Shown here one piece after another: positions 26,635 to 63,854 of a DNA stretch of 64,000 nucleotides. Made by a program: the position numbers and the translations under genes. The stretch is taken from the NCBI GenBank assembly GCA_963669175.1, contig OY769902.1:5024001-5088000 (forward strand), in the 5' to 3' direction. The first letter of the stretch is position 1, and the number at the start of each line of letters is the position of its first letter. The DNA comes from a bacterium. GTDB lineage: Bacteria > Electryoneota > Electryoneia > Electryoneales > Electryoneaceae. The notes beneath the pieces were generated by a model. That model searched no databases, was not told the DNA's origin, and saw only the letters and a list, made by a program, of their open reading frames with translations.

Positions 26635-29600
26635 TTATTGCAGCAAAATGACTTTCTGAATCCCATCAAAGGCGCTTCGTCCATCTCGTGCGATGTGAAC
26701 GCATACAAAATACACCCCGCTGCTGACCGGCATGTCCGATAGTCCAAGGCTATTCCACGTCACCACCTGCCGCCCCGCGCCGAGTTGCCCCAGCGAACGT
26801 TTGGCGACCTGCTGCCCAAGGATGTTGAACACGGTCAGGGTGACTTCACCGGGCTGTTTCAGTTCCAACGGGATCATGATGGTTGAGTTGAACGGGTTGG
26901 GATAACCGGGTAGCATGGCATCTTCTGTGGGTAGAGCCGCCTCTTTCAGGTCGGGTGCAGGCCAGCTCGGGTCAAATGGCAACGCGCCACGATCCGACCG
27001 TGACCCATCCGGATCCGGAGGAAACTCCGGATCACCGGTGTCTATACAGGGCGACTCCGGTTGAAGTCGATAGTCCCCGTTTTCCGCATCGACAAACAGT
27101 GGATCACCACACTGATTCTCTGTACTATCCAGTGTCGCTCTATCCACATTATGAATTATATCACTATCAACAAATTGGTTGTAGCTGATCCTGACATTTC
27201 GTACCCCTTCCATAAAACTAGAGTAAAACACATATTGATCGACATCAATTATATTGTTTGTTATCTTATATGTCACATTATCCTCAATGCTGTTAAAGTC
27301 AATAACAAAATATCTGCCATTAATACAGGTATTATTTGTCAATATACTATTATTATGAGACCTTAGCGCTTCATTGTACGCATAAAACATATTTACATCC
27401 CTGCTAATATTATTGTTTATGTATATATATGAATATGGGACTAAATAATTATCAATAAATACTCCATACAATAAATTATTCAATGTATTATTGCTGTAAT
27501 ATACTCTATAATGATTGCTATTGTCATCCGATACAACAAGTATCGCTTTTTCACAATCTGTAAAATCACACGAATCTACAACTATATTTACTATGTGCCC
27601 ACGTATTGCAGATTTCGCTATATCATAAAATGAACAATTCCGGATTGTGCAGTTTTTTTCCAATACCGCACTTAGTGTTACTCCGTTATTTCCGCAGTGA
27701 TTGAACCGGCTGTCAAGCAGTGTGGCCTGGTCATTGGGGGCCAGTAAACAATAGCCCCAATAATAGGACACCCGGCAATGCGACAGGTTGATATCCCGAT
27801 AGTGTTCCAGCCACAAGGGCTGAAGAGCATGTTCGATCACTAGATAATCCAGGTTGAGAATGCCATCCCCCTCAGCGTAGACCCCCTGCCAGGCATCCAC
27901 GGCTGAAGAGGTCGCGCTACGGAAGTAAATGGAATCCTCCGCTGTTCCCGCCAAGGTTACCGTCCCATAGATATCAAACCCGACCAGCGCCCCAAGATCG
28001 TGGGTATCACGGAACAACAGCTCTACGCCGGGATCGATGGTCAACTGGTCCCGTTCATTGACATAGATGTTATTGCTGATATAGACAGGTGATTCCGCAA
28101 TGGATAGCCTGCCTGACACCGGCCCTTCCAGTTGGCTGCGGCAGACACGGACGTGTACAGTTGCCCGTTCTGCGCTATCTGCAGGGGTGTCGTACTGAAG
28201 CACGAACAGGAAATCTTCCGCGTCTTCCGGAACCATTCCTGTCAGCACCAGGGAGTCTTCCACAGCGTCCAGCTCATCTTCTTCGAGTTCCACATGCAAC
28301 CAGACCGGGTAGTTCAGGTAGGAGATGTCGATAGCATCGCCATCGTCTGTAGCGCGTGCCGCATAACGGAACATATGACCGGTCACGGCTATGCCTTTAC
28401 GAGGAGCATCATACACCGGGCTGTGATTGATCCGGTGATCAAAATAGAAAGCACCGATATCGGGTGGGCTGCCATCCGGATCATAGTTGAAATTGGCGTG
28501 CCCGGCATCAATCAATGGCGATACCGCCTGAAGCGTCAGGTCACCGTTGGCAAGATCAGTGACACGAGGATCGCCTGCGAAATTATCGAAACCCGGATCG
28601 GGGCCGCCAATCATCTCGCCGGTACGGAAAAACCAGTTATTGCGGAGAATAGCCGGGGTAGTCTCATTAAAATACATACCGTAATTCGTCGTATTGTCGC
28701 CGTACCCGATAACCAGGTTATTGTAGATCGAGAGCGAACCACCATCAGCAAAAGTAATGACGGTATTTTCCGGAGCAGGAACGTCAGGCTGGTACACAGT
28801 TGTATTGTTTACATAGTCGCCATCACAATCATTATAAATCTGGTTTCCTTTTATCAGGTTATAGGAAATTGATGAGGAAGAAAGATAATTGCAATATAAA
28901 CCGCCATCAACGATATTATTTTGAAATGTTGCCTGGCCACCTTGTATGTTCACTGATGTTGGATTATATCTGTTATTTTCCAAAGGATCTCCCAAATATT
29001 CAAACGTATTATTCATTATAGTAACTTCGGTATTGCCTTCAGATCGACTACTAAATGTGCAGATCCTGGAATTCTCTACTAGCGTTGATTGCGTGTTATA
29101 TACATATATATCCTTTATACAACTGTTTATAACTACAATATTACCTGAATCAAAAATGTTAATACGTCCGTTATCCATCACAAGACTATCTACAGATAGA
29201 GCAGCAGCATGAGAAACAAAAAAAGAAGAATTCACACAAGCACTTCCAATTGTCACATTTGTGATGTCGGCGACACTGCCATAATTCACAAGGGTTTCAA
29301 AAATGTTAGAATTTATGCTCAGGTCTTCTAAAAGCAGGTAGCCACCCGTTTGAGCAATAAAACAGGCCTGATCCCATGGCCATATGTGCGGAAATGAACA
29401 TTGGCGAATTTCGATTTCGGTACTGGTATCATCAGCAAAGAAATAGACTGTACCTTCCATCCGGCAGTAATGAAACAGGCTTGGATTGCTGGTTCCATAT
29501 TGCCTGAATGCAAAATAACTCATCTCCTCATCTGCGACATGGAAATAAATCGAATCACCCTCCTGTCCATTGGCGGTTATCTGGCCTTGAATGGCGATGA

Positions 29601-29892
29601 AGACGGTTGACGTCTCACTATCAAGGATAACTTCCACCCCAGGATTGATCACCAGGTTCGATACCGAAAGATCACCCGTCACGATATAGGGACTGCCCTC
29701 AACCGTCCATGTGCCGGATACTGCACCGGATACATAAGTCTCGGCAGAGGTCAAGGGTGGGATAAGTAATTGCGTAAAGAGGATGAAAACAGTACACCAC
29801 AAGACAGAAAGAAGCGATTTGGAAAAGACAACAGCATGTGAAAGGTCACAATGAAAAACTCTAAGACACTGTTTGGCAAATTTGTCACTCAT
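26635..29892 (-). CDS. T9SS-sorted protein with two tandem beta-helix modules and an Ig-like linker
   Basis: GGAGG RBS before ATG 29892. Two copies of SP(Y/V)...PGVE...DSIYF, beta-helix and DP...SPxIDxG...DPDGS..DxGA; C-terminal YPNPFN...SSGVYF...KVILLQ. Confidence 0.88.
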   Translation of the reverse strand: MSDKFAKQCLRVFHCDLSHAVVFSKSLLSVLWCTVFILFTQLLIPPLTSAETYVSGAVSGTWTVEGSPYIVTGDLSVSNLVINPGVEVILDSETSTVFIAIQGQITANGQEGDSIYFHVADEEMSYFAFRQYGTSNPSLFHYCRMEGTVYFFADDTSTEIEIRQCSFPHIWPWDQACFIAQTGGYLLLEDLSINSNIFETLVNYGSVADITNVTIGSACVNSSFFVSHAAALSVDSLVMDNGRINIFDSGNIVVINSCIKDIYVYNTQSTLVENSRICTFSSRSEGNTEVTIMNNTFEYLGDPLENNRYNPTSVNIQGGQATFQNNIVDGGLYCNYLSSSSISYNLIKGNQIYNDCDGDYVNNTTVYQPDVPAPENTVITFADGGSLSIYNNLVIGYGDNTTNYGMYFNETTPAILRNNWFFRTGEMIGGPDPGFDNFAGDPRVTDLANGDLTLQAVSPLIDAGHANFNYDPDGSPPDIGAFYFDHRINHSPVYDAPRKGIAVTGHMFRYAARATDDGDAIDISYLNYPVWLHVELEEDELDAVEDSLVLTGMVPEDAEDFLFVLQYDTPADSAERATVHVRVCRSQLEGPVSGRLSIAESPVYISNNIYVNERDQLTIDPGVELLFRDTHDLGALVGFDIYGTVTLAGTAEDSIYFRSATSSAVDAWQGVYAEGDGILNLDYLVIEHALQPLWLEHYRDINLSHCRVSYYWGYCLLAPNDQATLLDSRFNHCGNNGVTLSAVLEKNCTIRNCSFYDIAKSAIRGHIVNIVVDSCDFTDCEKAILVVSDDNSNHYRVYYSNNTLNNLLYGVFIDNYLVPYSYIYINNNISRDVNMFYAYNEALRSHNNSILTNNTCINGRYFVIDFNSIEDNVTYKITNNIIDVDQYVFYSSFMEGVRNVRISYNQFVDSDIIHNVDRATLDSTENQCGDPLFVDAENGDYRLQPESPCIDTGDPEFPPDPDGSRSDRGALPFDPSWPAPDLKEAALPTEDAMLPGYPNPFNSTIMIPLELKQPGEVTLTVFNILGQQVAKRSLGQLGAGRQVVTWNSLGLSDMPVSSGVYFVCVHIARDGRSAFDGIQKVILLQ

Positions 29893-30038
29893 AACGCCTC
29901 CTGTGAGCCGTGCTGGAAGACCGTAATATGGTAGCAAGCTAAAGATATTTGTGCAATACATCAAGATGACTTGGCATAATATCCCATTTTCAACATATAG
30001 AAGCGGGCTGCCAACAATGAATCACTCACGGCTTATCA

Positions 30039-30308
30039 CTAGTGGACCATTGCACCTGATATGAGTTGTTCTGCTTGTTTTTGATGAGTCGAGTTCAAGG
30101 CAGTTTCACGAAATCATAGTGGTTCTATTCTAAGTGAAACTAACGCAGAAATCGGCCATCAAAAACAAACCCGAAGGGAGCGCGCGCTTTGCCCCATGAC
30201 TGCGTTGCTTTCCCTTGAAATAGCCCGCTATGTCTGTAGTCAAGCGCCTTGTCCTGAGGCAAAGCGCGCAGCTCAGAAAACATCATAGCAGGTGCAATGG
30301 TCCACTAG
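30039..30308. mobile_element. 270-bp MITE with 20-bp perfect terminal inverted repeats bounded by CTAG
   Basis: CTAGTGGACCATTGCACCTG (30039-30058) and CAGGTGCAATGGTCCACTAG (30289-30308); non-coding interior containing a hairpin. Confidence 0.85.
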
Positions 30309-30455
30309 CATGATAAAGAGTCCTTCTCACTCCCCAACCTCCCCTTGCAGTTTCCCACCCCAACCCCTATTCTCTCCCATGCACTTTGCCTGACGAAACG
30401 GCTCATATAGTCGAATCAGTATTGCAGGCGCTCACAACCAGCTACGGAGCTTATC

Positions 30456-32288
30456 ATGTCCTTATTCAACGACCTGAACCAAACATACCTGCAACGACAC
30501 ACCACACGTGAAGATGCCTTCTGGGCGAATAAAATGGGGCTCTCCACATACACGGACGGTGATTTCGAAAAACATGAATTTGCCTTGAAAGATTTCATCA
30601 CCGATGCCTCCTGGCTTCCGAAAATCCGTGAGGAACTGAAGCGGACCAATCTGACCGAAACGGAGCAGATCGGCCTGAACGGCTGGCTGAAATTCTTCGA
30701 GGCCAATGCCATTGAAAGCGAAGAAGCGAAAGCCTTGCAGAAGAAAATCATCGAGATGGAAGGCGAATTATATCGTGCCCGTGGAAAGATGAAACTTGGC
30801 TATATCGATCCGGAAACGGGCGAGTTCGTGGAAGCCAGCTCAGTGCAACTGCGCCTGATCATCCAGACCGATGCCAGCGAAGCCAAACGAAAGGCGGCCT
30901 GGGAAGGGCTGCGTTCGATTGAAACCTACGTATTGGAACATGGTTTCGCGGAAATCGTGAAGCAGCGTAACCGCCTGGGACGTCTGCTCGGTTACAAGGA
31001 CTTTTACGATTACCGTGTCAAGGTCAACGAAGGCTTTTCCAAGGAGAATCTGTTCGAACTTCTCGACGAGCTTGAGGTCAATACCCGTGAAGCCTGCAAG
31101 GCATCGGTAGAGCGTATCCGCAAAGAAAAGGGCGACGCTGCCGCGCAGGCCTGGAACTTCGAACAGGCTACAGCCGGTGATTTGAAAGCGGAAAAAGACC
31201 CGTACATGGGCTTCGATACGGCTTTCGAGCGCTGGGGACGTTCTTTTGCCGCGTTGGGCATCGGGTATCGTGGCGCGACACTTACTCTGGACCTGGTTGG
31301 ACGCAAAGGCAAGTACGAAAACGGTTTCATGCACGGCCCCGGCCCATCTTTCATGGACGGTGACACCTGGCGCCCGGCTCGCATCAATTTCACCTCTTTC
31401 GCGGTTCCGGGACAGATCGGCAGCGGGCAGAATGCGGCCGGAACTCTTTTCCATGAAGGCGGTCACGCGGCGCATTTTTCCAACATTCGTATGCCCGCGC
31501 CCTGCTTCTCACAGGAGTTCGCGCCGACCTCCATCGCGTTCGCCGAAACCCAGTCCATGTTCCTGGACAGCCTGGTCAATGATCCTGACTGGCTGACACG
31601 TTATGCCTTGGACAAGGACGGCAATGCCATGCCCTTCGACCTGATCGAAAAGGTGCTGGAAGAGGATTACCTGTATCGTGCCAACCTGCTGCGCAAACTG
31701 ATGGTAGTGCCGTATTTCGAGCGTCGTTTATACGACATGGCCGATGAGGAGCTGACAGCAGAAAACATTCTCAAGGCAGGACGTGAAATTGAAAAGCAGA
31801 TGGTGTATATGGATTCGGATTCCCGTCCGATTCTCGCCATTCCGCACCTTCTGGACAGCGAATCAAGCGCCTATTACCACGCTTATGTCCTGGCCCAGAT
31901 GGCGGTTTACCAGACTCGCGCCTACTTTATCAAGGAGTACGGCTATATCCTGGACAATCCCCAGGTCGGACCGGCGCTGGCGGAACATTACTGGAAGCCG
32001 GGCAACTCGAAGGACTTCCTGACACTGGTCGCGGAACTGGTTGGCGAGCCCTTCTCAGCGAAGGCAACCATCGACCTGGTCAACAAGGATATGAAGGATG
32101 TAATCGCCGATGCGAAGCAGGCCATCGACAGGGTGAAAACTCAGCCTGCGTTCGAAGGGCCGGTAAACCTCGATGCTACTATCAAGCTGATCCACGGCGA
32201 TGAAGTTATCGCCTCCACGGAGGATGGGACTTCTTTCGAAGATGCCGCGAAGACGTATGGCGCATGGATACGTAAGTTGGAAGAGTAG
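30456..32288 (+). CDS. M3-family zinc oligopeptidase
   Basis: TLFHEGGHAAH zinc motif, AFAETQSMFLD, PHLL...YYHAY. Confidence 0.88.
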   Translation: MSLFNDLNQTYLQRHTTREDAFWANKMGLSTYTDGDFEKHEFALKDFITDASWLPKIREELKRTNLTETEQIGLNGWLKFFEANAIESEEAKALQKKIIEMEGELYRARGKMKLGYIDPETGEFVEASSVQLRLIIQTDASEAKRKAAWEGLRSIETYVLEHGFAEIVKQRNRLGRLLGYKDFYDYRVKVNEGFSKENLFELLDELEVNTREACKASVERIRKEKGDAAAQAWNFEQATAGDLKAEKDPYMGFDTAFERWGRSFAALGIGYRGATLTLDLVGRKGKYENGFMHGPGPSFMDGDTWRPARINFTSFAVPGQIGSGQNAAGTLFHEGGHAAHFSNIRMPAPCFSQEFAPTSIAFAETQSMFLDSLVNDPDWLTRYALDKDGNAMPFDLIEKVLEEDYLYRANLLRKLMVVPYFERRLYDMADEELTAENILKAGREIEKQMVYMDSDSRPILAIPHLLDSESSAYYHAYVLAQMAVYQTRAYFIKEYGYILDNPQVGPALAEHYWKPGNSKDFLTLVAELVGEPFSAKATIDLVNKDMKDVIADAKQAIDRVKTQPAFEGPVNLDATIKLIHGDEVIASTEDGTSFEDAAKTYGAWIRKLEE

Positions 32289-32340
32289 CGTTTTTTCCAT
32301 TTGATATTTCGTAGAATGATATACATTGATAGATTCATCA

Positions 32341-32369
32341 GTAGTCCCGGCCAGGCATGGCCGGGCTAC
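32341..32369. repeat. GTAG-type REP palindrome CCCGGCCAGGCATGGCCGGGCTAC
   Basis: Further copies at about 58849, 61997 and 62115. Confidence 0.75.
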
Positions 32370-32551
32370 ATGTATTTTGGCCCCGCCGGCTTGAAGCACG
32401 CTGAAGCGAAGCGGAAGCGGCTGCCCGGCGGTGGTCTATTTTAAATAAATAAAGAGATTAGTCCACTTATTTTTATAGTAGCCTATACTAACCAGAAATC
32501 ATTGTTCCTGGAAATTGCCCTGTAGAGAGAGTTTGTTTATTGGAGATTACC

Positions 32552-32782
32552 ATGACCACAGCAGACTTGAAGATCACGTTCGCCATCAGCCAGAACCAGT
32601 TGGAGCTTTTCCTTCAGGACATCACTGCGGAACAGGCGGCCGAACGTCCCCACGACATCAACCCGATCAACTGGATTCTGGGCCATATACTAACCGAACG
32701 TCTTGAGGCGATCATGCTCATGGGCGTCAAGTTCCCCGAGGGCCGCCCACGCAAGCGCAAACGCAGTCGTGGCAACAAATAA
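32552..32782 (+). pseudogene. Truncated DinB-family gene fused to a basic GRPRKRK tail
   Basis: GGAGA RBS; DinB-like NPINWILGHIL. Only 76 aa, and the stop codon lies inside the repeat site at 32763-32802. Confidence 0.7.
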
Positions 32783-32802
32783 ACTACCGTCTGTCCCTAG
32801 TT
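32763..32802. repeat. Left site of the inverted pair flanking Sir2-HerA
   Basis: GCAGTCGTGGCAACAAATAAACTACCGTCTGTCCCTAGTT; its reverse complement matches 35993-36032 with few differences. Confidence 0.9.
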
Positions 32803-33041
32803 ATTCTTGAAGAGGCCGGTGTGCAAGCAGAAAAGAAAGACGTTTTCGTGATCGAGGTCGTTGACTCCTATCTTGAGGCGGCCTAACTTTCAAATACCCG
32901 AACGGTGGAACTCAATTTCCACCAAAACTCGGGACGCGACCGTATACTAGCGTATGACGATATCGTTCCGGGTACATGAAGAAGCTCTTCTGTCTAGTAT
33001 CCGTTTCAGTGGAAATTCTGTAGCAGCATTCGGAGCAGAAA

Positions 33042-34172
33042 ATGAGTCTAGCGGAGTTTTCAACCCCAGCCCTCCAACCCACTGTAGAGGAAATGAGGGA
33101 ACTATTTTCCCAGAGCAACCTCGCTTTTCTTCTTGGCGCTGGCTGCAGTAAGATCGCCAAGCTACCCCTTATGGATGGCCTGACGGATCAAGTGAAAACT
33201 CATAATGGTTTAAGTGACCAGACGAAGTATCTGTTGAATACAATGGAGAATAACTTCGCTGGAGGAAAAGCCTGCACGATAGAGGATTTTCTTAGCGAAC
33301 TTATCGATTACTACTCCATCACGTCAAGGCGGCAGTTCCGGGGCGCTACCGCTACTTCGCTCAAGATTGGCACACGAGACTTCAGTCCTAACGACCTCGA
33401 GGACGCGCTCAAGGAATTAAAAGGGGCTATATCGATTATCATAGGTGACATTGATGTCGATTCGACAACGCATCAACAGTTCGTTAAAGCAGTGCATTTT
33501 TCGCTGCAAGCTGGGAAGGCCCCCCGTTCTGTTGATTACTTCATTCTGAATTATGATACTTTGATTGAAGATGCTCTAGGCTTAGAAGGAGTCGATTACT
33601 GTGACGGCTTTGCAGGTGGAGCTACCGGGTGGTGGAAACCGGACTCCTTTAGGACTGCCAAGAAACCGAGTCGAGTTTTTAAGGTGCACGGTTCGATTGA
33701 CTGGTGTCTTCTCGATAAGGACCCGCTTCCACGTAGGATTCGAAAGGGGGTTAATACAGCTTCACTCAAGAGACATGTGTTGATCTATCCCGCAGCAACG
33801 AAATATCAGGAATCTCAGCGTGACCCATTCGCCACAATGCTTGGTAACATGCGTCAAAGCCTGTGTCCTTCTGAAGGTAAAGAAATGGTCCTGGCGATTT
33901 GCGGATATGGTTTTGGGGATTCGCATATTGATTTGGAAATTGAGAATGCTCTGCATCAATCGGAAGGAAGACTCACAGTAGTGGCGTTTGTTGGAACAGA
34001 TATACCTGAAGGCACACTAAAGAGATGGCTGGATGATTCGGCGATATCAGAACAAGTACGAGTGTATGCAAATAGAGGTTTTTTTCACGGCAGCAATTCA
34101 TTCAAACATGACGCTGATTTGTCTTGGTGGAAATTTGAGATTCTCACTCGGCTGCTTGGGGGTGAACGATGA
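33042..34172 (+). CDS. SIR2-like NADase of a Sir2-HerA defence system
   Basis: FLLGAGCS, FILNYDTLIE, YCDGF, FKVHGSIDW, LIYP, GYGFGDSHI. Confidence 0.92.
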   Translation: MSLAEFSTPALQPTVEEMRELFSQSNLAFLLGAGCSKIAKLPLMDGLTDQVKTHNGLSDQTKYLLNTMENNFAGGKACTIEDFLSELIDYYSITSRRQFRGATATSLKIGTRDFSPNDLEDALKELKGAISIIIGDIDVDSTTHQQFVKAVHFSLQAGKAPRSVDYFILNYDTLIEDALGLEGVDYCDGFAGGATGWWKPDSFRTAKKPSRVFKVHGSIDWCLLDKDPLPRRIRKGVNTASLKRHVLIYPAATKYQESQRDPFATMLGNMRQSLCPSEGKEMVLAICGYGFGDSHIDLEIENALHQSEGRLTVVAFVGTDIPEGTLKRWLDDSAISEQVRVYANRGFFHGSNSFKHDADLSWWKFEILTRLLGGER

Positions 34173-35938
34173 GTATTAGTAGAAAGCCAAATGAGCCGAT
34201 CTCAAATTTGGAAATCGGCGCTATCATCGAAGTGGATGGTACACGTATAGTTGCGGATCTCGATCCGAATATTAGTGAACTAACCCGCGTTTATGGTGGT
34301 TCTATTTATCCGATTGGGCAGTTTGGGTCCATCATCAAGATTCATTATGGCGTTAGGCTGATTTTCGGATATGTGGGCCGACTCCGGATGAAATCAGAGT
34401 ACGAGCGTGAGAAGGGCCTTGTCCCGGAATCGGTCGGAAGCGAGCGAATCATTGAGGCTGATTTATTTGGTGAAGGCCAGTGGAGTATTGACAGTGGAGA
34501 GTGGAAGCTAGAATTTGAACGAGGTGTAACAACTTTTCCTTTGCCCTTGCAGAAGGTCTATCTGACACCGCGCTCTGAATTGAGCTTCATCTATGGAGAA
34601 GGAACCGGCCCGACAATTCTTCTTGGCGAACACGTCGGCTCTGGTGGAACGCCTTGCTACGCGGAAATGAACGATCTTCTTGGCAAACACACGGCCATAT
34701 TGGGTTCTACTGGCGCTGGAAAGTCGGGAACAGTTGCCGCCGTTCTTCATTCTATTCTTGATCGAGGCAACGAAGCTCAACATTCGAAGTGGCATCCTCA
34801 AATCGTCGTTCTCGATCCACACAATGAATACGGTACGGCGTTTCCGCACCATGTGAGACTATGCACCGATGAGGACTCTCTCGAACTTCCATACTGGCTT
34901 CTCAATATGGAAGAAACGGTATCGCTTATAGTTGGAAGGACAGAGGAAGCCGCAACTTCACAGACAAATATTGTGATGAATGCGCTTTGGAGAGCTCGCC
35001 AAGAAGGGGCACGAAAACTTGGTATAGACGAGAACAGTATCACCGTTGATTCTCCAATTCCGTATTACATTGGCGACCCGCATGGCTTAGACGAACTCGG
35101 AGAAAAGAACGGAACAAGGGACAATAACCATGGTTTTGTGGGCGCAATTAACTCCCTGCGTCCAGATGGTCGCGACAAGAAAAAGCATGAAGGATACACC
35201 AAAGTCATTCGAAAAGTTGAATCGCTTTGTCGAGATACTCGGAAAGCGTTCATGATGAAAGAATGGGACGGCACCGCCGATCCGTTGCCCAGTATTGTTA
35301 AGCAGTTCATTGGCGACAGTGATCCCATCCGAATCGTGGATTTGTCCGGAGTCCCAAACGAAGTGGCAGGCGCGGCAAGTTCCGCGATTGCCAGGACGCT
35401 GTTTTCGGTGAAACTCTGGCAAACGCGGGAAGAGCGCGAAAAGAATCCTGTGCTCCTTGTCTGCGAAGAGGCACATCGTTACGTGCCGAATCGGGGCGAA
35501 GCGCAATACGAGGCCGCGCAGGATGCGATTCGAAGACTTGCCAAGGAAGGACGCAAATACGGCATTGGCTTGATGCTTGTTTCCCAGCGACCGAGTGAAG
35601 TTGAGGCAACCGTGTTATCACAGTGCAATTCATGGATCGTCTTGCGCATCACGAATGATTCGGATCGGAGTCATGTGCAAGGAATACTGCCTGATTCCCT
35701 TGCCGGATTGACAAAGGTTCTCTCCGGGCTTCGGCGTCGGGAAGCGATCTTTGTTGGACAAGCCGCCGTCTTGCCCTCACGAATTCTTATTCGGGACTTG
35801 GTGAAGGACGGGAAGCATCTTCCACGGTCTCAGGACATTGATTTTGATCAAGGATGGCAAAGCGAACCGTTGACTAATGATCCAATTAGTGAGATCGGCA
35901 GGAGATGGCGGCTTCAACGGAGGCCCACAGCCTCTTAG
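34169..35938 (+). CDS. HerA/FtsK-family ATPase of a Sir2-HerA defence system
   Basis: Walker A GSTGAGKS, LDPHNEY, Walker B VCEEAHRY, AKEGRKYG, SQRPSE. ATGA overlap with the SIR2 gene. Confidence 0.93.
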   Translation: MSISRKPNEPISNLEIGAIIEVDGTRIVADLDPNISELTRVYGGSIYPIGQFGSIIKIHYGVRLIFGYVGRLRMKSEYEREKGLVPESVGSERIIEADLFGEGQWSIDSGEWKLEFERGVTTFPLPLQKVYLTPRSELSFIYGEGTGPTILLGEHVGSGGTPCYAEMNDLLGKHTAILGSTGAGKSGTVAAVLHSILDRGNEAQHSKWHPQIVVLDPHNEYGTAFPHHVRLCTDEDSLELPYWLLNMEETVSLIVGRTEEAATSQTNIVMNALWRARQEGARKLGIDENSITVDSPIPYYIGDPHGLDELGEKNGTRDNNHGFVGAINSLRPDGRDKKKHEGYTKVIRKVESLCRDTRKAFMMKEWDGTADPLPSIVKQFIGDSDPIRIVDLSGVPNEVAGAASSAIARTLFSVKLWQTREEREKNPVLLVCEEAHRYVPNRGEAQYEAAQDAIRRLAKEGRKYGIGLMLVSQRPSEVEATVLSQCNSWIVLRITNDSDRSHVQGILPDSLAGLTKVLSGLRRREAIFVGQAAVLPSRILIRDLVKDGKHLPRSQDIDFDQGWQSEPLTNDPISEIGRRWRLQRRPTAS

Positions 35939-35990
35939 GAAATAGATCCTGCCACATAGCCCACTGTTTCTCACAGCGAACTTCCTTGGA

Positions 35991-36299
35991 AAAACCTGGG
36001 ACAGACGGTAGTTATTTCGTTGCCACGACTGCCTCTGTGCCTGGGTTATTAGTCGGCCAGATCAGAAGAACCCCGGCCATACGCAGCCGAGTTACCAGTC
36101 TTTGTCCTTGATATCCTTCTATCCTTCCATCCTGTGTGGCGTAGACGAAAAACTTGGGACAGACGGTAGTTTTTAAAACTAGGGACAGACGGTAGTTTTT
36201 TCGTTGCCACTAAAACTAGGGACAGACGGTAGTTTTTTCGTTGCCACGATTGCTTCTGTGCCTGAGTTTTATGTCGGCAGATCAGAGAAAACCCGGCCA
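35991..36299. repeat. Four direct copies of the AAAACYWGGGACAGACGGTAGTT site
   Basis: Copies start at 35991, 36149, 36175 and 36212. Copies 1 and 4 share about 88 nt; copies 2 and 3 stop after 26 and 37 nt. Confidence 0.9.
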
Positions 36300-36394
36300 A
36301 GATGACCGGGCTGAAGAAGTTACAATTCAGTATTTATCCTTGTAGTATTACGTCATTTATCCATTATCTTTTATCTTTTACCATTAATCAGTTT

Positions 36395-36490
36395 TTTTAT
36401 CCTTTAAATCCTATTATCCTATCATCCTGTTAAGCGCAGTTTATCTTTCCCATCCTGTTAAGCGCTGTTCATCCTGTACATCCTGTGAAT
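36395..36490. repeat. ATCCTG-rich low-complexity intergenic repeat
   Basis: The same motif family (or its complement CAGGAT) occurs at about 6855-6930, 25575-25685, 44700-44770 and 52515-52560. Confidence 0.7.
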
Positions 36491-36491
36491 A

Positions 36492-38528
36492 TCACTCTCC
36501 GAACTCAGCGTCCAGTGTCCGCTGCACCAAGTCGTCATCCACCAGGAACGGCAGTGTGATATGGTCCGTATCAGCATTCTGCTGGTTGTACTCGACCACG
36601 GTTTCAATGCTGTGCGGGTTACGTGCCCAGCTACGACGCGCCACACCGCCCATCACATCCCACGGCATCGACTTGCGGATAATAGTATCAACACGTTCGC
36701 TGCCGTCCAGCACCAGCCCGAAGCCGCCGTTGATGGCCTTGGAGATGCCCACACCGCCACCGTTGTGCAGCGCGATCATGCTCATCCCACGCGCAGCGTT
36801 GCCGCCCCAGCAGTGAATCGCCATATCGGCCGTGATGTTACTGCCGTCCTTGATGTTGGCGGTTTCACGGAACGGGCTGTCAGTGCCGCCCGGGTCATGG
36901 TGATCACGGCCCAGCATGATCGGTCCGACGATACCGTCACGCACCATCTGGTTGAACTTCAGCGCGATCTCGGTACGGCCCTTGGCGTCCTGGTACAGGA
37001 TACGCGCCTGGGTGCCGACCACCAGCCTGTTCTTCATCGCGTCACGCGCCCAGATCATGTTGTCACGGTCCTGGTAACGCAGTTCCGGACGAATCCCGGC
37101 GATAACATCCGCTGCGGCCTGATCGGTCTTGATCAGGTCTGATTCGTTCTGGCTCAGGCAGACCCAGCGGAAGGGGCCGTACCCATAGTCGAACAGTTCC
37201 GGGCCGAGGATATCTTCCACGTAGCTCGGCCAGATGAAACCGTCCTTGTCGTCACGCCCGTTTTTCGACATCTCGTCGATTCCGCTGTCGTAAAGCGCTT
37301 TCAGGAACGCGTTGCCATAATCGAAGAAGTAGCTGCCACGGTCACGCAGTTCTTTCACCAGTTCGTAATGCTTGCGTAGGGACTTGTCTACCAGGCGACG
37401 GAACTCTTCCTTGTCCGCATCCAGCAGACGGGTACGTTCCTCGAAACTGACCCCCTGCGGGCAGTAGCCGCCGTCATAGACCACATGGCAACTGGTCTGA
37501 TCGGAAAGCAGGTCGATGGGTTCGTTGTTGTCCACCGCATACTGCAGCAGATCCACGATGTTGCCGTGGAACGCAATTGCCAGTCCGACTTCATCCGCCT
37601 GTGCCGCGCGCGCCATGCGGAACGCTTCGGCGGGATCGGCGGTTACTTCGCTTACCCAGCCCTGCTCATGACGTGTCCTGACACGGCTCTCGTCGACTTC
37701 CGCGATGATCCCGGCGCCGTTGGCGATCTCCACCGCTTTACCCTGAGCGCCGCTCATACCGCCGAGGCCGGAAGTGACAAACAGCTTGCCGCGCAAGTCG
37801 CTGTCGCTGGGAACTCCCAGCATCATACGTCCGGCGATGTTGATGGTGTTGTAGGTGCCGTGTACGATCCCCTGCGGGCCGATATACATCCAGCCACCGG
37901 CAGTCATCTGGCCGTAATTGGTAACGCCCAATGCCGCACCACGAGCCCAGTCTTCCGGGTTGTCGTACATGCCGATCATGACGCCGTTGGTCGAGATCAC
38001 ACGTGGCGAGGTCTCATGGGACTTGAATAGGCCCAGCGGATGACCGGACTGCATGACAAGCGTCTGCTCACGTGTCATCACCTCGAGATACTTCTTGATA
38101 ATCTGGTATTGCATCCAGTTCTGGCAGACCTGTCCGGTTTCACCGTAGGTAACCAGTTCGTAGGGGTACAGCGCGATATCAAAATCGAGGTTGTTGTCGA
38201 TCATGACCTGGAAGGCTTTTCCCTCGATGCAGTTGCCCTTGTACTGGTCGATGGGCTTGCCCCAGAGTTTTCCTTCAGGACGGAAACGATAGCCGTAAAT
38301 ACGTCCCCGAGTCCGCAGCTCTTCCATGAACTCCGGGATCAGGGTGGCGTGGTGCTCTTCCGGGATGTAACGAAGGGCGTTGCGAAGCGCCAGCTCGGTA
38401 TCCGCACGGTTCAGCTTCGGGCTGCGTTTCGGCGCACGACGGTAGCCTTCGAGAAAGGGTTTCGGTTCCGGTAACGGACCATCCAGCTTGATGGTCATCG
38501 CATTGGCAATATCGGTATTGGTAAGCAT
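36492..38528 (-). CDS. hutU: Urocanate hydratase (long form)
   Basis: YGQMTAGGWMYIGPQGIVHGT, GLGGMSGAQ, SDQTSCH, GPFRW, GRDHHD, LHNGGGVG. Confidence 0.96.
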   Translation of the reverse strand: MLTNTDIANAMTIKLDGPLPEPKPFLEGYRRAPKRSPKLNRADTELALRNALRYIPEEHHATLIPEFMEELRTRGRIYGYRFRPEGKLWGKPIDQYKGNCIEGKAFQVMIDNNLDFDIALYPYELVTYGETGQVCQNWMQYQIIKKYLEVMTREQTLVMQSGHPLGLFKSHETSPRVISTNGVMIGMYDNPEDWARGAALGVTNYGQMTAGGWMYIGPQGIVHGTYNTINIAGRMMLGVPSDSDLRGKLFVTSGLGGMSGAQGKAVEIANGAGIIAEVDESRVRTRHEQGWVSEVTADPAEAFRMARAAQADEVGLAIAFHGNIVDLLQYAVDNNEPIDLLSDQTSCHVVYDGGYCPQGVSFEERTRLLDADKEEFRRLVDKSLRKHYELVKELRDRGSYFFDYGNAFLKALYDSGIDEMSKNGRDDKDGFIWPSYVEDILGPELFDYGYGPFRWVCLSQNESDLIKTDQAAADVIAGIRPELRYQDRDNMIWARDAMKNRLVVGTQARILYQDAKGRTEIALKFNQMVRDGIVGPIMLGRDHHDPGGTDSPFRETANIKDGSNITADMAIHCWGGNAARGMSMIALHNGGGVGISKAINGGFGLVLDGSERVDTIIRKSMPWDVMGGVARRSWARNPHSIETVVEYNQQNADTDHITLPFLVDDDLVQRTLDAEFGE

Positions 38529-38637
38529 GGTACTCTCCCTGAAATCATGTTAAGAATCCCACTCTATGGGTTCAGGATAGTAAGGAGAGTTGGGGCGGTT
38601 CTCAAGACATGGCGAGATGATTGGGTGAGGGAGGATA

Positions 38638-38848
38638 CCCGACAGCAAGCAGTCGGGCCAGACTGCAAATTAAATCGGCCCAAAACGTATCACACTGAGC
38701 GAAACCGCGTGGCCCGGTGTGCTCGCACCCGGGCGGTTGGGCAGAAATAATACATGGGGCAAAGGAAAAAGGGTACAGCCACCTTTCCCCGAAGCTCTTT
38801 CTTTCTGAATCAGCTTCATTACCAGGGAAAGGAAACTGTCCCCTTTTT
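38638..38848. repeat. Cluster of three different palindromic elements
   Basis: CCCGACAGCAAGCAGTCGGGCC (38638), GTGGCCCGGTGTGCTCGCACCCGGGC (38709) and a GGGTACAG...CTGTCCC unit (38766-38848). Confidence 0.75.
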
Positions 38849-38874
38849 CTACAACTATCTGTTCTGATTTGTAA

Positions 38875-39831
38875 CTACTTCAGCGCCCTCACAATCGCAT
38901 TCACATTGAAGCGCATGTAATTCAAGTATGTATCCGCCTCGCCGCCCGGCTCGCCAAGTGAACCAGTATAGATACGCACTAGTTTCACTCCGGTGTCGGA
39001 GGCGATACGTTCGGACAGTTGCGGATTAACCGTAGTTCCGGTAAAGATCGCACGTACTCCCTGCGCACGGATCTGATCTTCCAGCGCTGCCAGTTCCTGC
39101 GCGGACGGTTCCGCGAGAGTACTCACCCCCTGAAAGACGGTACCCGTGGTCTCGAAACCATACCGCTGTGCAAAATAGCCGAACACACGATGATCCGTAA
39201 CCAGCTTTCGTTGATCTTCCGGAATCGTCGCGACCTGTTCCCTGATCCACGTATCCAGTTGTTCCAGAGAATCGATATAGGCCGCAGCTCTTTCCTTATA
39301 CTGGTCATCGTTCTTCGGGTCAAGGTTGCACATGGTTTCCGTGACCACTCGCACCCAATCCATCACCAGGACCGGGTCCATCCAGACATGCGGATCAAGC
39401 GTATGATGGTGGCCTTCATGATGCTCATGTTCTGCTTCTTCGGCCTCTTCCTGATGCGGTTCAAAGGTGCGTGGAGAAATTCCCTGCGACAGAACCACTT
39501 CTTTTTCCGCTGTCCCGGCCGCTTCCAGCAGGTTCGCCAGCGAATGCTCCAGCCCCAGGCCATTCAGGAATACAACATTCGCATCAGCCAGGATTTTCAT
39601 ATCGGCGGGTGTCGGTTCAAAGCCATGCGGGTCGGCGCCGACCGGCAGAAGAGGTGTCACCCTTTGAAATGGAACCTGCTGCACAATATCTGCGGCAATG
39701 GTTGTGGTGGCTACTATGCGAAAGGGATCGTACTCATAGTGATTTTTTTTACCGCAACCTCCCGTCAACAACCCCAGTATGAGCCCCACTCCAGACACGA
39801 CAGGCAGGATGTTCTTGATATATTTTTGCAT
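38875..39831 (-). CDS. Zn/Mn ABC transporter substrate-binding lipoprotein (ZnuA/TroA family)
   Basis: Lipobox TGGC, DPHGFEP, NGLGLE, His-rich loop, DPHVWMDP, HRVFGYFA. Probable start 39831. Confidence 0.9.
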   Translation of the reverse strand: MQKYIKNILPVVSGVGLILGLLTGGCGKKNHYEYDPFRIVATTTIAADIVQQVPFQRVTPLLPVGADPHGFEPTPADMKILADANVVFLNGLGLEHSLANLLEAAGTAEKEVVLSQGISPRTFEPHQEEAEEAEHEHHEGHHHTLDPHVWMDPVLVMDWVRVVTETMCNLDPKNDDQYKERAAAYIDSLEQLDTWIREQVATIPEDQRKLVTDHRVFGYFAQRYGFETTGTVFQGVSTLAEPSAQELAALEDQIRAQGVRAIFTGTTVNPQLSERIASDTGVKLVRIYTGSLGEPGGEADTYLNYMRFNVNAIVRALK

Positions 39832-40180
39832 GATCAATGTCCCCTTCTCGATGAATAACTCTGCCAGTTTCGGACAGCTTAACAATCGGATACTACACAG
39901 AAGGCAAAGGGAAAGCAAGGAACGGCGAGACGGCATGCGGACTTTGTTTTCGACGATCAAATGCAGGAATACAAAAACACGGTGAGGGCAGACGCCGGCT
40001 CAACACACAGGCGATCCCCTGTGCTGCCTGCCCCACCGTGCGCAAAAAACTGTTCCGGGATTAAAGGAATATAACGACCTGCTCCCAATAATACTCGCCT
40101 CATTTTCGGAGATTTTGAAAAAGTTGTTCCAAGACGGTTTAGTTTATCTGTTTCCTATCCTTGTCCACAGACAGAAAAAG

Positions 40181-63365: not shown

Positions 63366-63854
63366 TTATGACCAAAATCTCCATTCATTCCAGATTGGAA
63401 CAATACCTTGTTGTTCCATCCAGTAGAAACCCGCACTTGAATATTTCCACGCCTCCGGAAATTCGACTAACCCTGCCTTGACAGGATTATTATGAATATA
63501 ATTTAATTTGGTTTGCAATACTTTCGTACTGGTTATAGCAACTCGATCATATCTACTTTGCCACAGTTTTCCATTATATGCAAGCGCATTTAATGCCTTT
63601 TGTGCAGTATACTTTTTTACATCTCGCATAAAACCGGATAAATATGCTCCTTCGATTATCATTAACAAATGTATATGTGACGGCATAAATACATAACCGA
63701 TCATTTTAGCATCAAGCTTATCAAGCTTATATGTGATTGTATCGCCAAGTATGTCATATACGCCTTCAATATTGCCATGCCTAATGTGATTATGAAAACT
63801 AGTCGTTACAAAAAAACAATCATTGCTTTCTTGACCTGGAAAACGTAATCCCAT
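63366..63854 (-). CDS. REP-associated tyrosine transposase (RAYT, Y1 HUH endonuclease)
   Basis: FFVTT, YVFMPSHIHLL (HUH), LWQSRY, YIHNNPVKAGLV...WKYSSA. AT-rich and flanked by REPs. Confidence 0.9.
   Translation of the reverse strand: MGLRFPGQESNDCFFVTTSFHNHIRHGNIEGVYDILGDTITYKLDKLDAKMIGYVFMPSHIHLLMIIEGAYLSGFMRDVKKYTAQKALNALAYNGKLWQSRYDRVAITSTKVLQTKLNYIHNNPVKAGLVEFPEAWKYSSAGFYWMEQQGIVPIWNEWRFWS

What the first reader, a model, noticed from the sequence alone, without database searches (positions are those of the whole stretch)
32552..36299. Sir2-HerA defence cassette between inverted ~40-bp sites with fixed-end duplications: candidate HUH-driven gene-capture platform
Seen: the 3.2-kb segment carrying SIR2 and HerA is bounded by GCAGTCGTGGCAAC..AAACTACCGTCTGTCCCTAGTT (32763-32802) and its near-perfect inverse (35993-36032). 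No integrase or DDE transposase lies inside, and I found no target-site duplication. The left site terminates a dinB gene, and the cargo begins with a headless gene fragment. Three more copies of the site follow on the right. Known: Y1/HUH enzymes nick ssDNA at a fixed site and leave no TSD, and IS91/ISCR-type elements capture DNA with one fixed and one variable end. Inference: these GGGACAG/CTGTCCC sites are substrates of a trans-acting HUH (RAYT-like) enzyme that inserts foreign cargo, here an antiphage system. That would be an integron-like acquisition route without IntI or attC.
Basis: partly seen in the sequence, partly recalled or inferred. Interest (0 to 1): 0.85.

Follow-up and report, generated by a model that had tools for sequence, protein, structure and literature searches.

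The report
Transposase-linked repeats bracket Sir2-HerA island
A horizontally acquired Sir2-HerA anti-phage operon lies between two inward-facing copies of a short repeat belonging to a little-studied family of HUH tyrosine transposases, and the repeat ends carry scars of repeated local duplication that hint at how the enzyme acts on DNA.

Summary
The 15-mer core occurs 5 times in the window against 0.1 expected, once left and four times right of Sir2-HerA, in inverted orientation. The sites are not orphans. They are the terminal inverted repeats of a "TIRtron", a single-copy Y1/HUH tyrosine transposase gene of the RAYT-related "TIRYT" kind. That gene sits at G000:1916482-1917144, flanked by the same sites, as are its counterparts in a sister species and in two metagenome contigs. 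About 44 copies are scattered through the genome as singlets and hairpin-forming doublets.

Both units flanking Sir2-HerA also carry remnants of the TIRYT gene's 3' end. The outer end of the repeat is followed by nested partial copies anchored at that end in 20 of 44 copies. The mirror control gives 7 of 44, and an unrelated 536-copy repeat family gives 2 of 536.

Sir2-HerA is foreign: HerA is up to 85% identical to proteins from other phyla, and none of those 80 loci shows a convincing copy of the site. At the hutU side, homology with the sister species stops at the repeat.

The HUH link is therefore supported. Integron-like gene capture is not shown, because most repeat copies sit beside ordinary genes. 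I rate it a new member of a known kind, with a new footprint worth testing.

The parts
32552..32734 (+). N-terminal fragment (~61 aa) of a DinB_2-superfamily gene. The C-terminal ~100 residues are missing from the genome.
   Evidence: Homologs in 14 of 40 relatives sit in open frames of 161-264 aa. The G006 homolog (168 aa) matches Pfam DinB_2 at 2.3e-10. tblastn finds no C-terminal part in G000.
32735..32781 (+). Remnant of a TIRYT (Y1 transposase) gene 3' end (..PEGRPRK..stop), fused in frame to the DinB_2 fragment.
   Evidence: It shares the peptide PEGRPRK with the C-terminus of the intact gene and its orthologs, and the DNA differs mostly at synonymous positions.
32782..32802 (+). Left TIR copy (21-mer), with its outer end facing the cargo.
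32830..32940 (+). Conserved ~110-nt leader: short open frame, TTGAC[AT]-N17-TAACTT, then a hairpin, upstream of SIR2.
   Evidence: nhmmer finds 5 copies in G000 (E 8e-32 to 5e-5) and 1 in G001 locus L024. Alignment. The promoter scan does not flag it. Hairpin fold -10.3 kcal/mol, z -1.6.
33042..34172 (+). SIR2 (NADase-type) defence gene.
   Evidence: Pfam SIR2_2 3.8e-9. PADLOC SIR2 6.4e-74.
34169..35938 (+). HerA ATPase defence gene. Its start overlaps the SIR2 stop by 4 nt.
   Evidence: Pfam DUF87 8e-31. PADLOC HerA 1.1e-130. Closest relatives are 85-75% identical and lie in other phyla.
35993..36013 (-). Innermost right TIR copy (variant end ..CCCAGGTT), with its outer end facing the cargo.
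36014..36146 (-). Older end-anchored unit: a second copy of the TIRYT 3' remnant plus flank-like DNA. It is 86-87% like 36212-36299.
   Evidence: the repeat finder families D1 and D6, spacing 220 nt. blastn.
36151..36234 (-). Three more TIR copies (36151-36171, 36177-36197, 36214-36234), forming end-anchored tandem units of 26 and 37 nt.
36235..36300 (-). TIRYT 3'-end remnant next to hutU, conserved in the sister species.
   Evidence: G001 C8 carries hutU (85% nt), then the same ~90-nt remnant and a variant site.
36492..38528 (-). hutU (urocanate hydratase), the conserved anchor gene on the right.
   Evidence: Three urocanase Pfam domains. 85% nt identity to G001.

Best explanation
The ~21-nt sites are the terminal inverted repeats (REP-like repeats) of a TIRtron. 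A TIRtron is a single-copy Y1/HUH tyrosine transposase gene (TIRYT, a RAYT relative; subclass 2.1 of Quentin et al.) together with its dispersed repeats. Here the repeats occur as singlets and as hairpin-forming inverted doublets.

Sir2-HerA is a horizontally acquired anti-phage operon. It lies between two such repeats whose outer ends face it. Each repeat is attached to a remnant of a TIRYT gene's 3' end.

Shown: identity of the sites, their link to the Y1 gene, the foreign origin of the cargo, and the end-anchored nested duplications.

Inferred mechanism, in three steps:
1. The enzyme nicks the GGGACAG-containing strand just outside the repeat and stays bound to the 5' end.
2. A host polymerase extends the free 3'-OH inward for a variable distance.
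3. The enzyme reseals the strand. This leaves a tandem copy that always ends at the repeat's outer end.

If the enzyme-bound 5' end is occasionally joined to another 3'-OH, the outer ends would become break-and-join points where species-specific DNA begins. I think this is how the repeats came to border the island. Whether the enzyme brought the cargo in is not shown.
For: (1) Link to the Y1 gene. G000:1916482-1917144(-) encodes a 221-aa protein matching Pfam Y1_Tnp at 6e-13. Sites flank it on both sides with their outer ends pointing away. Of the 10 Y1_Tnp matches in G000, no other lies near a listed TIR copy (coordinates).

(2) Same arrangement elsewhere. The G001 ortholog (72% identity) has sites at C232:258(-) and 1004(+). 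In metagenome contigs L146 and L147 the identical 20-mer lies 5' of an HVH-type Y1 gene.

(3) Fit to the described class. The motifs NH[VI]H, WQ and Y[VI]E[LM]NP, and a TIR ending in GGGACAG, fit subclass 2.1/TIRYT and its GGGGWSAS consensus (passages seen).

(4) Copy number. The 21-mer at <=2 mismatches occurs 44 times in G000; the reversed control gives 0. The exact 15-mer is in 6 of 41 related genomes; the control gives 0.

(5) End-anchored duplications. The junction 8-mer recurs within 60 nt downstream at 20 of 44 copies. The mirror control gives 7 of 44, all inside full-copy arrays (Fisher p=0.005). The unrelated family-2 repeats give 2 of 536. The same scars appear in G001, G003, G014, G015 and L147. 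Longer units also occur: 142 nt at the TIRtron, 385-393 nt elsewhere, and 157 nt in L146.

(6) Foreign cargo. HerA is 85-75% identical to proteins in Planctomycetota and Desulfobacterota MAGs. DNA similarity is confined to 33441-35866. Across the 80 loci only 2 hits were found at <=2 mismatches, consistent with chance.

(7) Island boundaries.
- G001 shares hutU, the remnant and the site; beyond the site its DNA has no G000 homolog.
- At G000 4487648(-), G001 homology exists only on the inner side, and >=5 kb on the outer side is G000-specific and carries PADLOC genes PDC-S54 and PDC-M04A.
- In G001 locus L024, a doublet, two glycosyltransferase genes and a site separate two genes that are 280 nt apart in G000.
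Against: - The G000 enzyme reads H-V-N at the HUH motif, whereas 7 of 7 aligned relatives read H-[VI]-H. It may be inactive now.
- The two outer ends that actually touch the cargo (32802 and 35993) carry no nested partial copies.
- Most neighbours on the outer side are ordinary genes: T9SS-tail proteins, HAD hydrolase, aminotransferase, GT9, signal peptidase and others.
- Only 3 of 22 G000 clusters border PADLOC-positive genes. I have no genome-wide baseline, so enrichment is not shown.
- Sites at synteny breaks: 7 of 8 site junctions against 5 of 13 non-site junctions. I counted these by eye. Fisher p=0.067, and the loci are not independent.
- G014 and G003 hold the motif, but their best TIRYT match is only 44% and 43% identical.
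- The strand bias predicted by the nick model is weak: 13 of 19 clusters, p=0.17.
- The nick position, the strand and the covalent intermediate are all inferred. No cut has been seen.
Confidence: 0.6

Rival explanations
1. Passive bystanders. The repeats are ordinary REP-like intergenic elements that settle at gene 3' ends and spread locally. The island landed in, or was later bordered by, a repeat cluster by unrelated means such as illegitimate or homologous recombination. The enzyme played no part in acquiring the cargo.
For: Most copies sit between ordinary, often convergent genes. The 80 donor-like loci show no convincing copy of the site. The hutU-side repeat predates the split of the two species. 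The left unit could be a local hop of the right-hand family, being 85% alike and found only at this locus. The DinB_2 truncation needs a deletion in any case.
Against: With 22 clusters in 5.4 Mb, repeats within 55 and 240 nt of both ends of one 3.2-kb island are very unlikely by chance. Homology with G001 stops at the repeat at two loci. The end-anchored scars show that the outer ends are active break-and-join points.
Confidence: 0.27
2. This is a dedicated, integron-like acquisition platform in which the HUH enzyme inserts defence cassettes at the repeat ends, and a shared leader or promoter expresses them.
For: Three G000 clusters and one or two G003 loci border defence genes. The ~110-nt leader lies within 30-400 nt of a site at 3 of 5 G000 copies. 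In G001 it lies just inside a site, upstream of cargo genes.
Against: - No common 3' motif ends these units.
- 2 of 5 leader copies have no site within 3 kb.
- Most sites have no accessory cargo.
- No array of cassettes comparable to an integron was found.
- Donor loci show no convincing copy of the site.
- Enrichment over a baseline has not been measured.
Confidence: 0.1
3. The sites are core sites of a tyrosine or serine recombinase (Xer/pdif-like or invertase-like), and the 3.2-kb segment is an invertible or exchangeable module.
For: The site can be read as 9-nt imperfect inverted arms around a 7-nt spacer (by eye). The inverted sites flanking a module resemble the pdif modules of Acinetobacter plasmids (recalled).
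Against: There is no recombinase gene in or beside the segment. The sites flank a Y1 gene in three genomes or contigs. Nested end-anchored duplications are not a known product of such recombinases. A single site has no stable fold.
Confidence: 0.02
4. The sites are the ends of a cut-and-paste (DDE) miniature transposon, or of an IS91/ISCR/Helitron-type rolling-circle element carrying Sir2-HerA as a passenger.
For: The repeats are inverted. The copies have one fixed and one variable end.
Against: There is no target-site duplication. The outer ends face the cargo, so the cargo lies outside the elements. No Y2_Tnp match was found in G000, although that search's control was uninformative.
Confidence: 0.01

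Closest known systems
TIRtrons / TIRYT (Di Nocera et al. 2013, PMC3733652); subclass 2.1 TnpA-Y1 (Quentin et al. 2018, PMC6006769)
   Same: A single-copy Y1 gene of ~220-240 aa with NHVH/WQ/Y.E.NP motifs. It is flanked by inverted repeats ending in a GGGGWSAS-like motif. The repeats are also dispersed as singles, dimers and clusters.
   Different: This is a new repeat family in a new lineage. The nested end-anchored duplications, the dispersed copies carrying variable lengths of the gene's 3' end, and the position at island borders are absent from the passages I read. Figures and supplements were not visible.
REPIN-RAYT systems (Bertels & Rainey 2011, PMC3116915)
   Same: Inverted doublets form a long hairpin (-25.2 kcal/mol, z -8.9). 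The cognate Y1 gene is single-copy and the systems are inherited within a lineage. Tandem REPIN clusters that include flanks were reported there.
   Different: A single repeat here is not a palindrome (-2.1 kcal/mol, z 0.4). The NCBIfam REP_Tyr_transpos score of 69 is below its cutoff of 80. Copy number is about 44, not hundreds.
IS200/IS605 (peel-and-paste Y1 transposition)
   Same: Y1_Tnp catalytic domain, no target-site duplication, and action expected on single-stranded DNA.
   Different: The gene is single-copy rather than multi-copy. The ends are symmetric inverted repeats, not asymmetric LE/RE hairpins. The NCBIfam IS200 score of 21 is far below its cutoff of 55.
IS91 / ISCR / Helitron rolling-circle elements
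   Same: Copies have one fixed and one variable end, and adjacent DNA is carried along.
   Different: Those elements use Y2 or Rep-helicase enzymes. None was found here (control uninformative). Here the variable end lies on the inner side of the repeat, whereas the cargo lies on the outer side.
Integrons and pdif modules
   Same: Short sites bound gene-sized modules, and some modules are defence genes.
   Different: There is no IntI or Xer-type recombinase at the locus, no attC-like structure in a single site, and no ordered cassette array.
Sir2-HerA anti-phage system (PMC11514289 and PMC11472057, abstracts seen in the listing)
   Same: Two overlapping genes, a SIR2 NADase-type protein and a HerA ATPase, with strong PADLOC matches.
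   Different: Nothing unusual was seen in the operon itself. Function was not tested.

Membership tests
TIRtron / TIRYT (subclass 2.1 Y1 transposases) | Y1_Tnp catalytic domain | tested here: met
   Pfam PF01797 6.2e-13, 49 bits against a cutoff of 23.
TIRtron / TIRYT (subclass 2.1 Y1 transposases) | HUH motif (N-H-[VI]-H) and catalytic Tyr in Y-x-E-x-N-P | tested here: inconclusive
   Tyr119 and His60 are invariant in 8 of 8 sequences. The second His is Asn in the G000 copy only; 7 of 7 relatives have His.
TIRtron / TIRYT (subclass 2.1 Y1 transposases) | Gene flanked by inverted repeats with a GGGGWSAS-like motif | tested here: met
   Sites lie on both sides of the gene in G000 and G001. The motif reads AGGGACAG (7 of 8), or GGGGACAG in variant copies. 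The consensus is taken from the passages.
TIRtron / TIRYT (subclass 2.1 Y1 transposases) | The same repeats dispersed as singles, dimers or clusters | tested here: met
   44 copies in 22 clusters, including 4-5 doublets.
Classical REP/RAYT | Each repeat is itself a palindromic hairpin with a GTAG tag | tested here: not met
   A singlet folds at -2.1 kcal/mol, z 0.39. GTAG is present in the site, but there is no stem.
Classical REP/RAYT | Protein reaches the NCBIfam REP_Tyr_transpos cutoff | tested here: not met
   69 bits against a cutoff of 80.
IS200/IS605 insertion sequence | Several near-identical copies of the transposase gene with asymmetric hairpin ends | tested here: not met
   One full copy plus remnants. 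The nearest paralog is 46% identical.
Integron | IntI integrase, attI, and an array of attC-bounded cassettes | tested here: not met
   There is no recombinase ORF in 30.4-38.5 kb. The sites flank a Y1 gene instead. A genome-wide IntI search was not done.
IS91/ISCR | Y2 HUH transposase | tested here: inconclusive
   PF04986 has no match in G000, but it also matched none of the 14 control genomes.
Sir2-HerA defence system | Adjacent SIR2 and HerA genes matching the defence-specific profiles | tested here: met
   PADLOC SIR2 6.4e-74 and HerA 1.1e-130. The genes overlap by 4 nt. NCBIfam scores are below the equivalog cutoffs.
Sir2-HerA defence system | Protection against phage | not testable with these tools
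   Needs a phage challenge.

The most novel reading that the evidence does not exclude
The outer ends of TIRYT repeats are HUH-activated joining points. The enzyme stays covalently bound to the 5' end of the repeat strand and can seal it to any free 3'-OH. Two repeats whose ends face each other would then form a landing pad where linear foreign DNA, here defence operons preceded by a shared leader, is ligated in or exchanged. No integrase, attC site or target duplication would be needed. That would be a route of gene acquisition driven by a domesticated-looking Y1 transposase.
Probability: 0.13. Interest if true: 0.85.

Novelty: new member of a known kind. Interest (0 to 1): 0.5.

Why it matters
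How REP, RAYT and TIRYT systems move or act in cells is still open. From recall and from the passages, in-vitro cleavage is known for one E. coli enzyme, and only rare excision reads have been seen in vivo.

The end-anchored nested duplications found here are a natural footprint. They fix where the activity occurs, at the outer end of the repeat. They also suggest which strand is cut and with what polarity. That gives a simple, testable model: nick, short extension, reseal.

The repeats also sit where species-specific DNA begins at two or three loci, including three defence loci. This raises the possibility, unproven, that these enzymes help shape variable regions. The Sir2-HerA operon itself looks ordinary.

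Tried and rejected
- Empty allele of the M3 peptidase-DinB_2-hutU locus. G003, G013, G014 and G015 have the peptidase but no synteny. G001 has hutU plus the repeat but no peptidase, DinB_2, Sir2 or HerA DNA, and its contig ends ~900 nt past the repeat. No empty allele was obtained.
- Excision or circle junctions. The five runs are held only as contigs. One X1 contig spans 32419-36203 unbroken, and no joint lies at the repeats. Contigs drop rare forms, so this says nothing either way. No RNA holder was listed.
- Rfam. Nothing real in 30000-40000; one weak miRNA-family hit lies on a family-2 repeat doublet.
- Promoter scan. It does not flag the leader's TTGACT-N17-TAACTT.
- Common 3' end of leader-led units. 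None was found.
- 'Headless gene fragment'. No relative was found in the 80 HerA loci.
- Base composition. The cargo is 48.7% GC against a window mean of 50.5%; 24 of 122 windows of equal size are as low or lower. It is not distinctive.
- Replication-strand bias of singlet clusters. 13 of 19, p=0.17.
- Synteny breaks at sites. p=0.067.
- Metagenome scan with the 20-mer. Only 2 contigs.
- Family-wide scan. The family holds only 16 genomes.
- Literature. 'TIRYT' or 'TIRtron' occur in 3 records, listed as 2 works. In the 10 papers listed of the 36 that hold at least 2 of the 4 terms, none combines RAYT with 'defense island' or 'gene capture'. I read passages only of PMC6006769, PMC3733652 and PMC3116915. 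For other papers I saw only listings and abstract starts. Supplements and figures, which list the TIR sequences and the RAYT/TIRYT alignment, were not visible and could hold this repeat family.

Full report
WHAT IS IN THE WINDOW.
The window is G000:C1:5024001-5088000, in a one-contig genome of 5.45 Mb and 50% GC. Reading left to right:
- An M3 peptidase gene (30456-32288).
- A short ORF (32540-32782).
- SIR2 (33042-34172) and HerA (34169-35938).
- hutU on the minus strand (36492-38528).

The core ACTACCGTCTGTCCC occurs exactly five times: once on the plus strand at 32783, and four times on the minus strand at 35998, 36156, 36182 and 36219. The expectation is 0.1, and no shuffle reached 5. The inverted arms extend to 58 nt at 81% and 54 nt at 85%. 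I saw no target-site duplication outside them.

THE SITES BELONG TO A Y1/HUH TRANSPOSASE.
Copy number and arrangement:
- The 21-mer form of the site occurs 44 times in G000 at <=2 mismatches. The reversed control gives 0.
- The copies fall in 22 clusters.
- On its own strand each copy ends ..CCCTAGTT(T). I call this the outer end.
- Where copies form close pairs they are (-,+) doublets with outer ends pointing apart, separated by a spacer of 25-47 nt.
- A doublet folds into a strong hairpin (-25.2 kcal/mol, z -8.9). A single copy does not fold (-2.1 kcal/mol, z 0.4).

The cognate gene:
- One (-...+) pair, 870 nt apart, encloses an ORF at 1916482-1917144(-).
- Its 221-aa product matches Pfam Y1_Tnp at 6e-13.
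- It scores 69 bits on NCBIfam REP_Tyr_transpos, below the cutoff of 80.
- G000 has 10 Y1_Tnp matches in all. No other lies near a listed copy of this repeat.

The same arrangement elsewhere:
- The G001 ortholog (72% identity) has the site on both sides.
- Two metagenome contigs from a GC-rich organism carry the identical 20-mer 5' of an HVH-type Y1 gene.
- The G015 ortholog (62%) is flanked by doublets of a variant repeat that shares GTCTGTCCCTAGTT.

Fit to the literature. The motifs N-H-V-H, W-Q and Y-V-E-L-N-P, the ~220-aa length, and a repeat ending in GGGACAG all fit subclass 2.1 of Quentin et al. That subclass is equated there with the 'TIRYT' of Di Nocera et al., whose flanking repeats share GGGGWSAS and occur as single, dimeric or clustered copies (passages). 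The sites are therefore TIRtron repeats, a described but barely studied class. 'TIRYT' or 'TIRtron' appear in only 3 records, listed as 2 works, in the library.

One caveat applies. The G000 protein reads H-V-N, whereas all 7 aligned relatives read H-[VI]-H.

BOTH FLANKING UNITS CARRY REMNANTS OF THE Y1 GENE.
- The intact gene ends ..LPEGRPRKK-stop, followed by the repeat.
- The ORF left of the cargo ends ..FPEGRPRKRKRSRGNK-stop, followed by the repeat. Its DNA differs from the intact gene mostly at synonymous positions.
- Its first ~61 residues belong to a DinB_2-superfamily protein. Full homologs have ~165 residues, and the rest of the gene is nowhere in G000.
- On the right, ~90 nt next to hutU and a second, older copy at 36014-36080 are decayed versions of the same gene tail.
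- G001 has the same remnant and a variant site next to its hutU.
- This sub-family of units occurs only at this locus in G000. The left unit is therefore probably a local, inverted derivative of the right-hand ones, or the reverse.

END-ANCHORED NESTED DUPLICATIONS.
What is seen:
- Downstream of the outer end there are often one to eight partial copies. All stop at the same point a few bases past TAGTT(T) and start at different points inside the repeat.
- They include the locus-specific bases just outside the repeat, so they arose in place.

Counts:
- The 8-mer spanning the outer junction recurs within 60 nt downstream at 20 of 44 copies.
- The mirror test at the inner junction gives 7 of 44. 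All 7 lie inside arrays of full copies (p=0.005).
- A second, unrelated repeat family in the same genome serves as a further control. It has 536 copies at <=3 mismatches (reversed control 31) and shows this at 2 of 536.

Longer units of the same kind:
- 26 and 37 nt in the window.
- 142 nt (gene tail plus repeat) beside the intact gene.
- 385-393 nt elsewhere in G000.
- 157 nt (repeat plus gene head) in L146.

The scars recur in G001, G003, G014, G015 and L147.

Order of events. In arrays where a long partial copy follows a shorter one, the long copy is not a copy of what precedes it. New copies must therefore arise next to an intact repeat and push older ones outward (read).

MECHANISM (INFERRED).
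Y1 enzymes cut single-stranded DNA, bind the 5' end through tyrosine and leave a 3'-OH. This is established for IS608-type enzymes and is recalled here. The geometry above is explained without any need for microhomology if:
1. The cut lies on the GGGACAG strand just 5' of the repeat.
2. A polymerase extends the flank's 3'-OH inward, displacing the enzyme-bound strand.
3. The enzyme reseals its 5' end to the new 3' end.

The result is a tandem copy of variable length, anchored at the cut. If the same intermediate were sealed to a distant 3'-OH, it would give the dispersed units that carry variable lengths of inner DNA. It could also join repeat ends to foreign DNA.

The predicted strand bias, with the GGGACAG strand on the lagging-strand template, is seen in 13 of 19 singlet clusters. 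This is not significant. No cut has been observed.

THE CARGO AND ITS BORDERS.
- SIR2 and HerA match the PADLOC defence profiles at 6e-74 and 1e-130.
- HerA's best relatives, at 85-75% identity, are in Planctomycetota, Desulfobacterota and other phyla.
- DNA similarity runs only from 33441 to 35866. Across the 80 loci only 2 hits were found at <=2 mismatches, consistent with chance.
- The operon is therefore foreign, and the repeats belong to the host.
- The outer ends lie 240 nt before SIR2 and 55 nt after HerA.

Homology boundaries with G001:
- On the hutU side, homology ends at the repeat, and the DNA beyond it in G001 has no match in G000.
- At a second G000 locus (site 4487648, minus strand), G001 homology exists only on the inner side. 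More than 5 kb on the outer side is G000-specific and encodes PDC-S54 and PDC-M04A.
- A third site cluster (2745174/2745198) lies before an unknown gene and PD-T7-4, in a 4-kb stretch with no G001 DNA match.
- In G001, a doublet, two glycosyltransferase genes and a facing site separate two genes whose homology blocks are 280 nt apart in G000, where no site lies between them.
- In G003 a doublet sits between AbiEii and PDC-S06.

EVIDENCE AGAINST A DEDICATED CAPTURE PLATFORM.
- Most outer-side neighbours are ordinary genes.
- Of 17 site-adjacent G000 proteins put to PADLOC, 5 matched, and these came from 3 of 22 clusters.
- In other genera, 2 of 10 proteins matched strongly and 1 weakly.
- Without a genome-wide baseline this is not an enrichment.
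- Sites at synteny breaks between G001 and G000: 7 of 8 junctions with matches on both sides. Junctions without a site in the same loci: 5 of 13. I counted these by eye; p=0.067, and the loci are not independent.
- The two outer ends that touch the cargo carry no nested scars.
- The runs available are contigs only and show no joints at the repeats.

A SHARED LEADER.
- The first ~110 nt of the 'cargo' (32830-32940) recur at four other G000 places and once in G001.
- In the window and at two of those places the leader lies 30-400 nt outside a site and upstream of defence or unknown genes. The other two G000 copies have no site within 3 kb.
- In G001 it lies just inside a site, upstream of the glycosyltransferase genes.
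- It contains a short conserved open frame, TTGAC[AT]-N17-TAACTT, and a hairpin. The promoter scan does not flag it.
- Its role is unknown. It is not found next to Sir2-HerA in other phyla.

VERDICT.
The HUH idea is right in kind, and I found the enzyme. The sites are TIRtron repeats, so the system is a new member of a known kind. The nested end-anchored duplications are a clear footprint and, as far as my searches reach, undescribed (passages and listings only, supplements closed). That the enzyme captured Sir2-HerA remains an inference. I give about 0.13 to the integron-like reading, and 0.6 to the more modest account in which recombinogenic repeat ends border a foreign island.

Noticed in passing
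window 32830-32940; G000 2744856-2744967, 4484074-4484185, 2696536-2696629, 1849132-1849214; G001 L024 4164-4252: A ~110-nt conserved leader (short open frame, TTGAC[AT]-N17-TAACTT, hairpin) precedes unrelated defence-like or unknown genes: Sir2-HerA, an unknown gene plus PD-T7-4, a 189-aa membrane-like ORF, a 201-aa ORF, and a 342-aa ORF whose sequence looks FRG-like (by eye, not searched). It may be a shared regulatory region.
   Followed up: partly
window 38765-38849 and about 536 places genome-wide: A second, far more abundant REP-like hairpin family (GAAAAGG..CTGT[AC]CC..) is probably tied to the paralogous Y1 gene at G000 3618164-3618820, which is flanked by it. The window copy is a doublet between hutU and znuA, and it drew a spurious Rfam miRNA hit. 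This family lacks the nested end duplications (2 of 536).
   Followed up: partly
window 32375-32470: A third short repeat (70-100 nt, well over 40 listed blastn matches genome-wide) lies between the M3 peptidase and the DinB_2 fragment. It holds a terminator-like hairpin at 32419-32436, and short-read contigs break there.
   Followed up: no
window 63435-63761 (-): Another Y1_Tnp paralog lies at the end of the window (Pfam 1.7e-6 on a 95-aa piece). G000 has 10 Y1_Tnp matches in all.
   Followed up: no
G013 locus L178 (C2:4534700-4539756): Three tandem copies of a 404-aa IS4-like DDE transposase gene (DUF4372 + DDE_Tnp_1), spaced 1379 nt with a repeat doublet in each of the two gaps, lie directly upstream of the TIRYT ortholog. 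This is either an IS that targets the doublets or a large end-anchored amplification.
   Followed up: partly
G003 locus L180 (C94:1-5300): A repeat doublet sits exactly between two convergent defence units, AbiEii (9e-109) and PDC-S06 (3.5e-283).
   Followed up: partly
G000 1368086-1369483 and 4028204-4029601: A 1.4-kb segment is duplicated at 99.86% identity at two distant places. It includes a repeat copy and the 3' end of a beta-helix protein gene.
   Followed up: no
G000 1367265-1368080 and five other places: A ~370-nt unit (the last ~250 nt of a T9SS-tail-type gene plus ~120 nt ending in the repeat) occurs 5 times, twice in tandem, plus once as a 118-nt piece. These are headless gene pieces ending at the repeat.
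   Followed up: partly
window 36423-36478: Two tandem 28-nt units (CATCCTGTTAAGCGC..) lie just after the hutU stop. Similar ACAGGATG words occur in the G001 hutU flank.
   Followed up: no
window 27783-29746: About 2 kb of the 1109-aa T9SS-tail protein gene is 94% identical to G000 5189349-5191312, a recent paralog.
   Followed up: no
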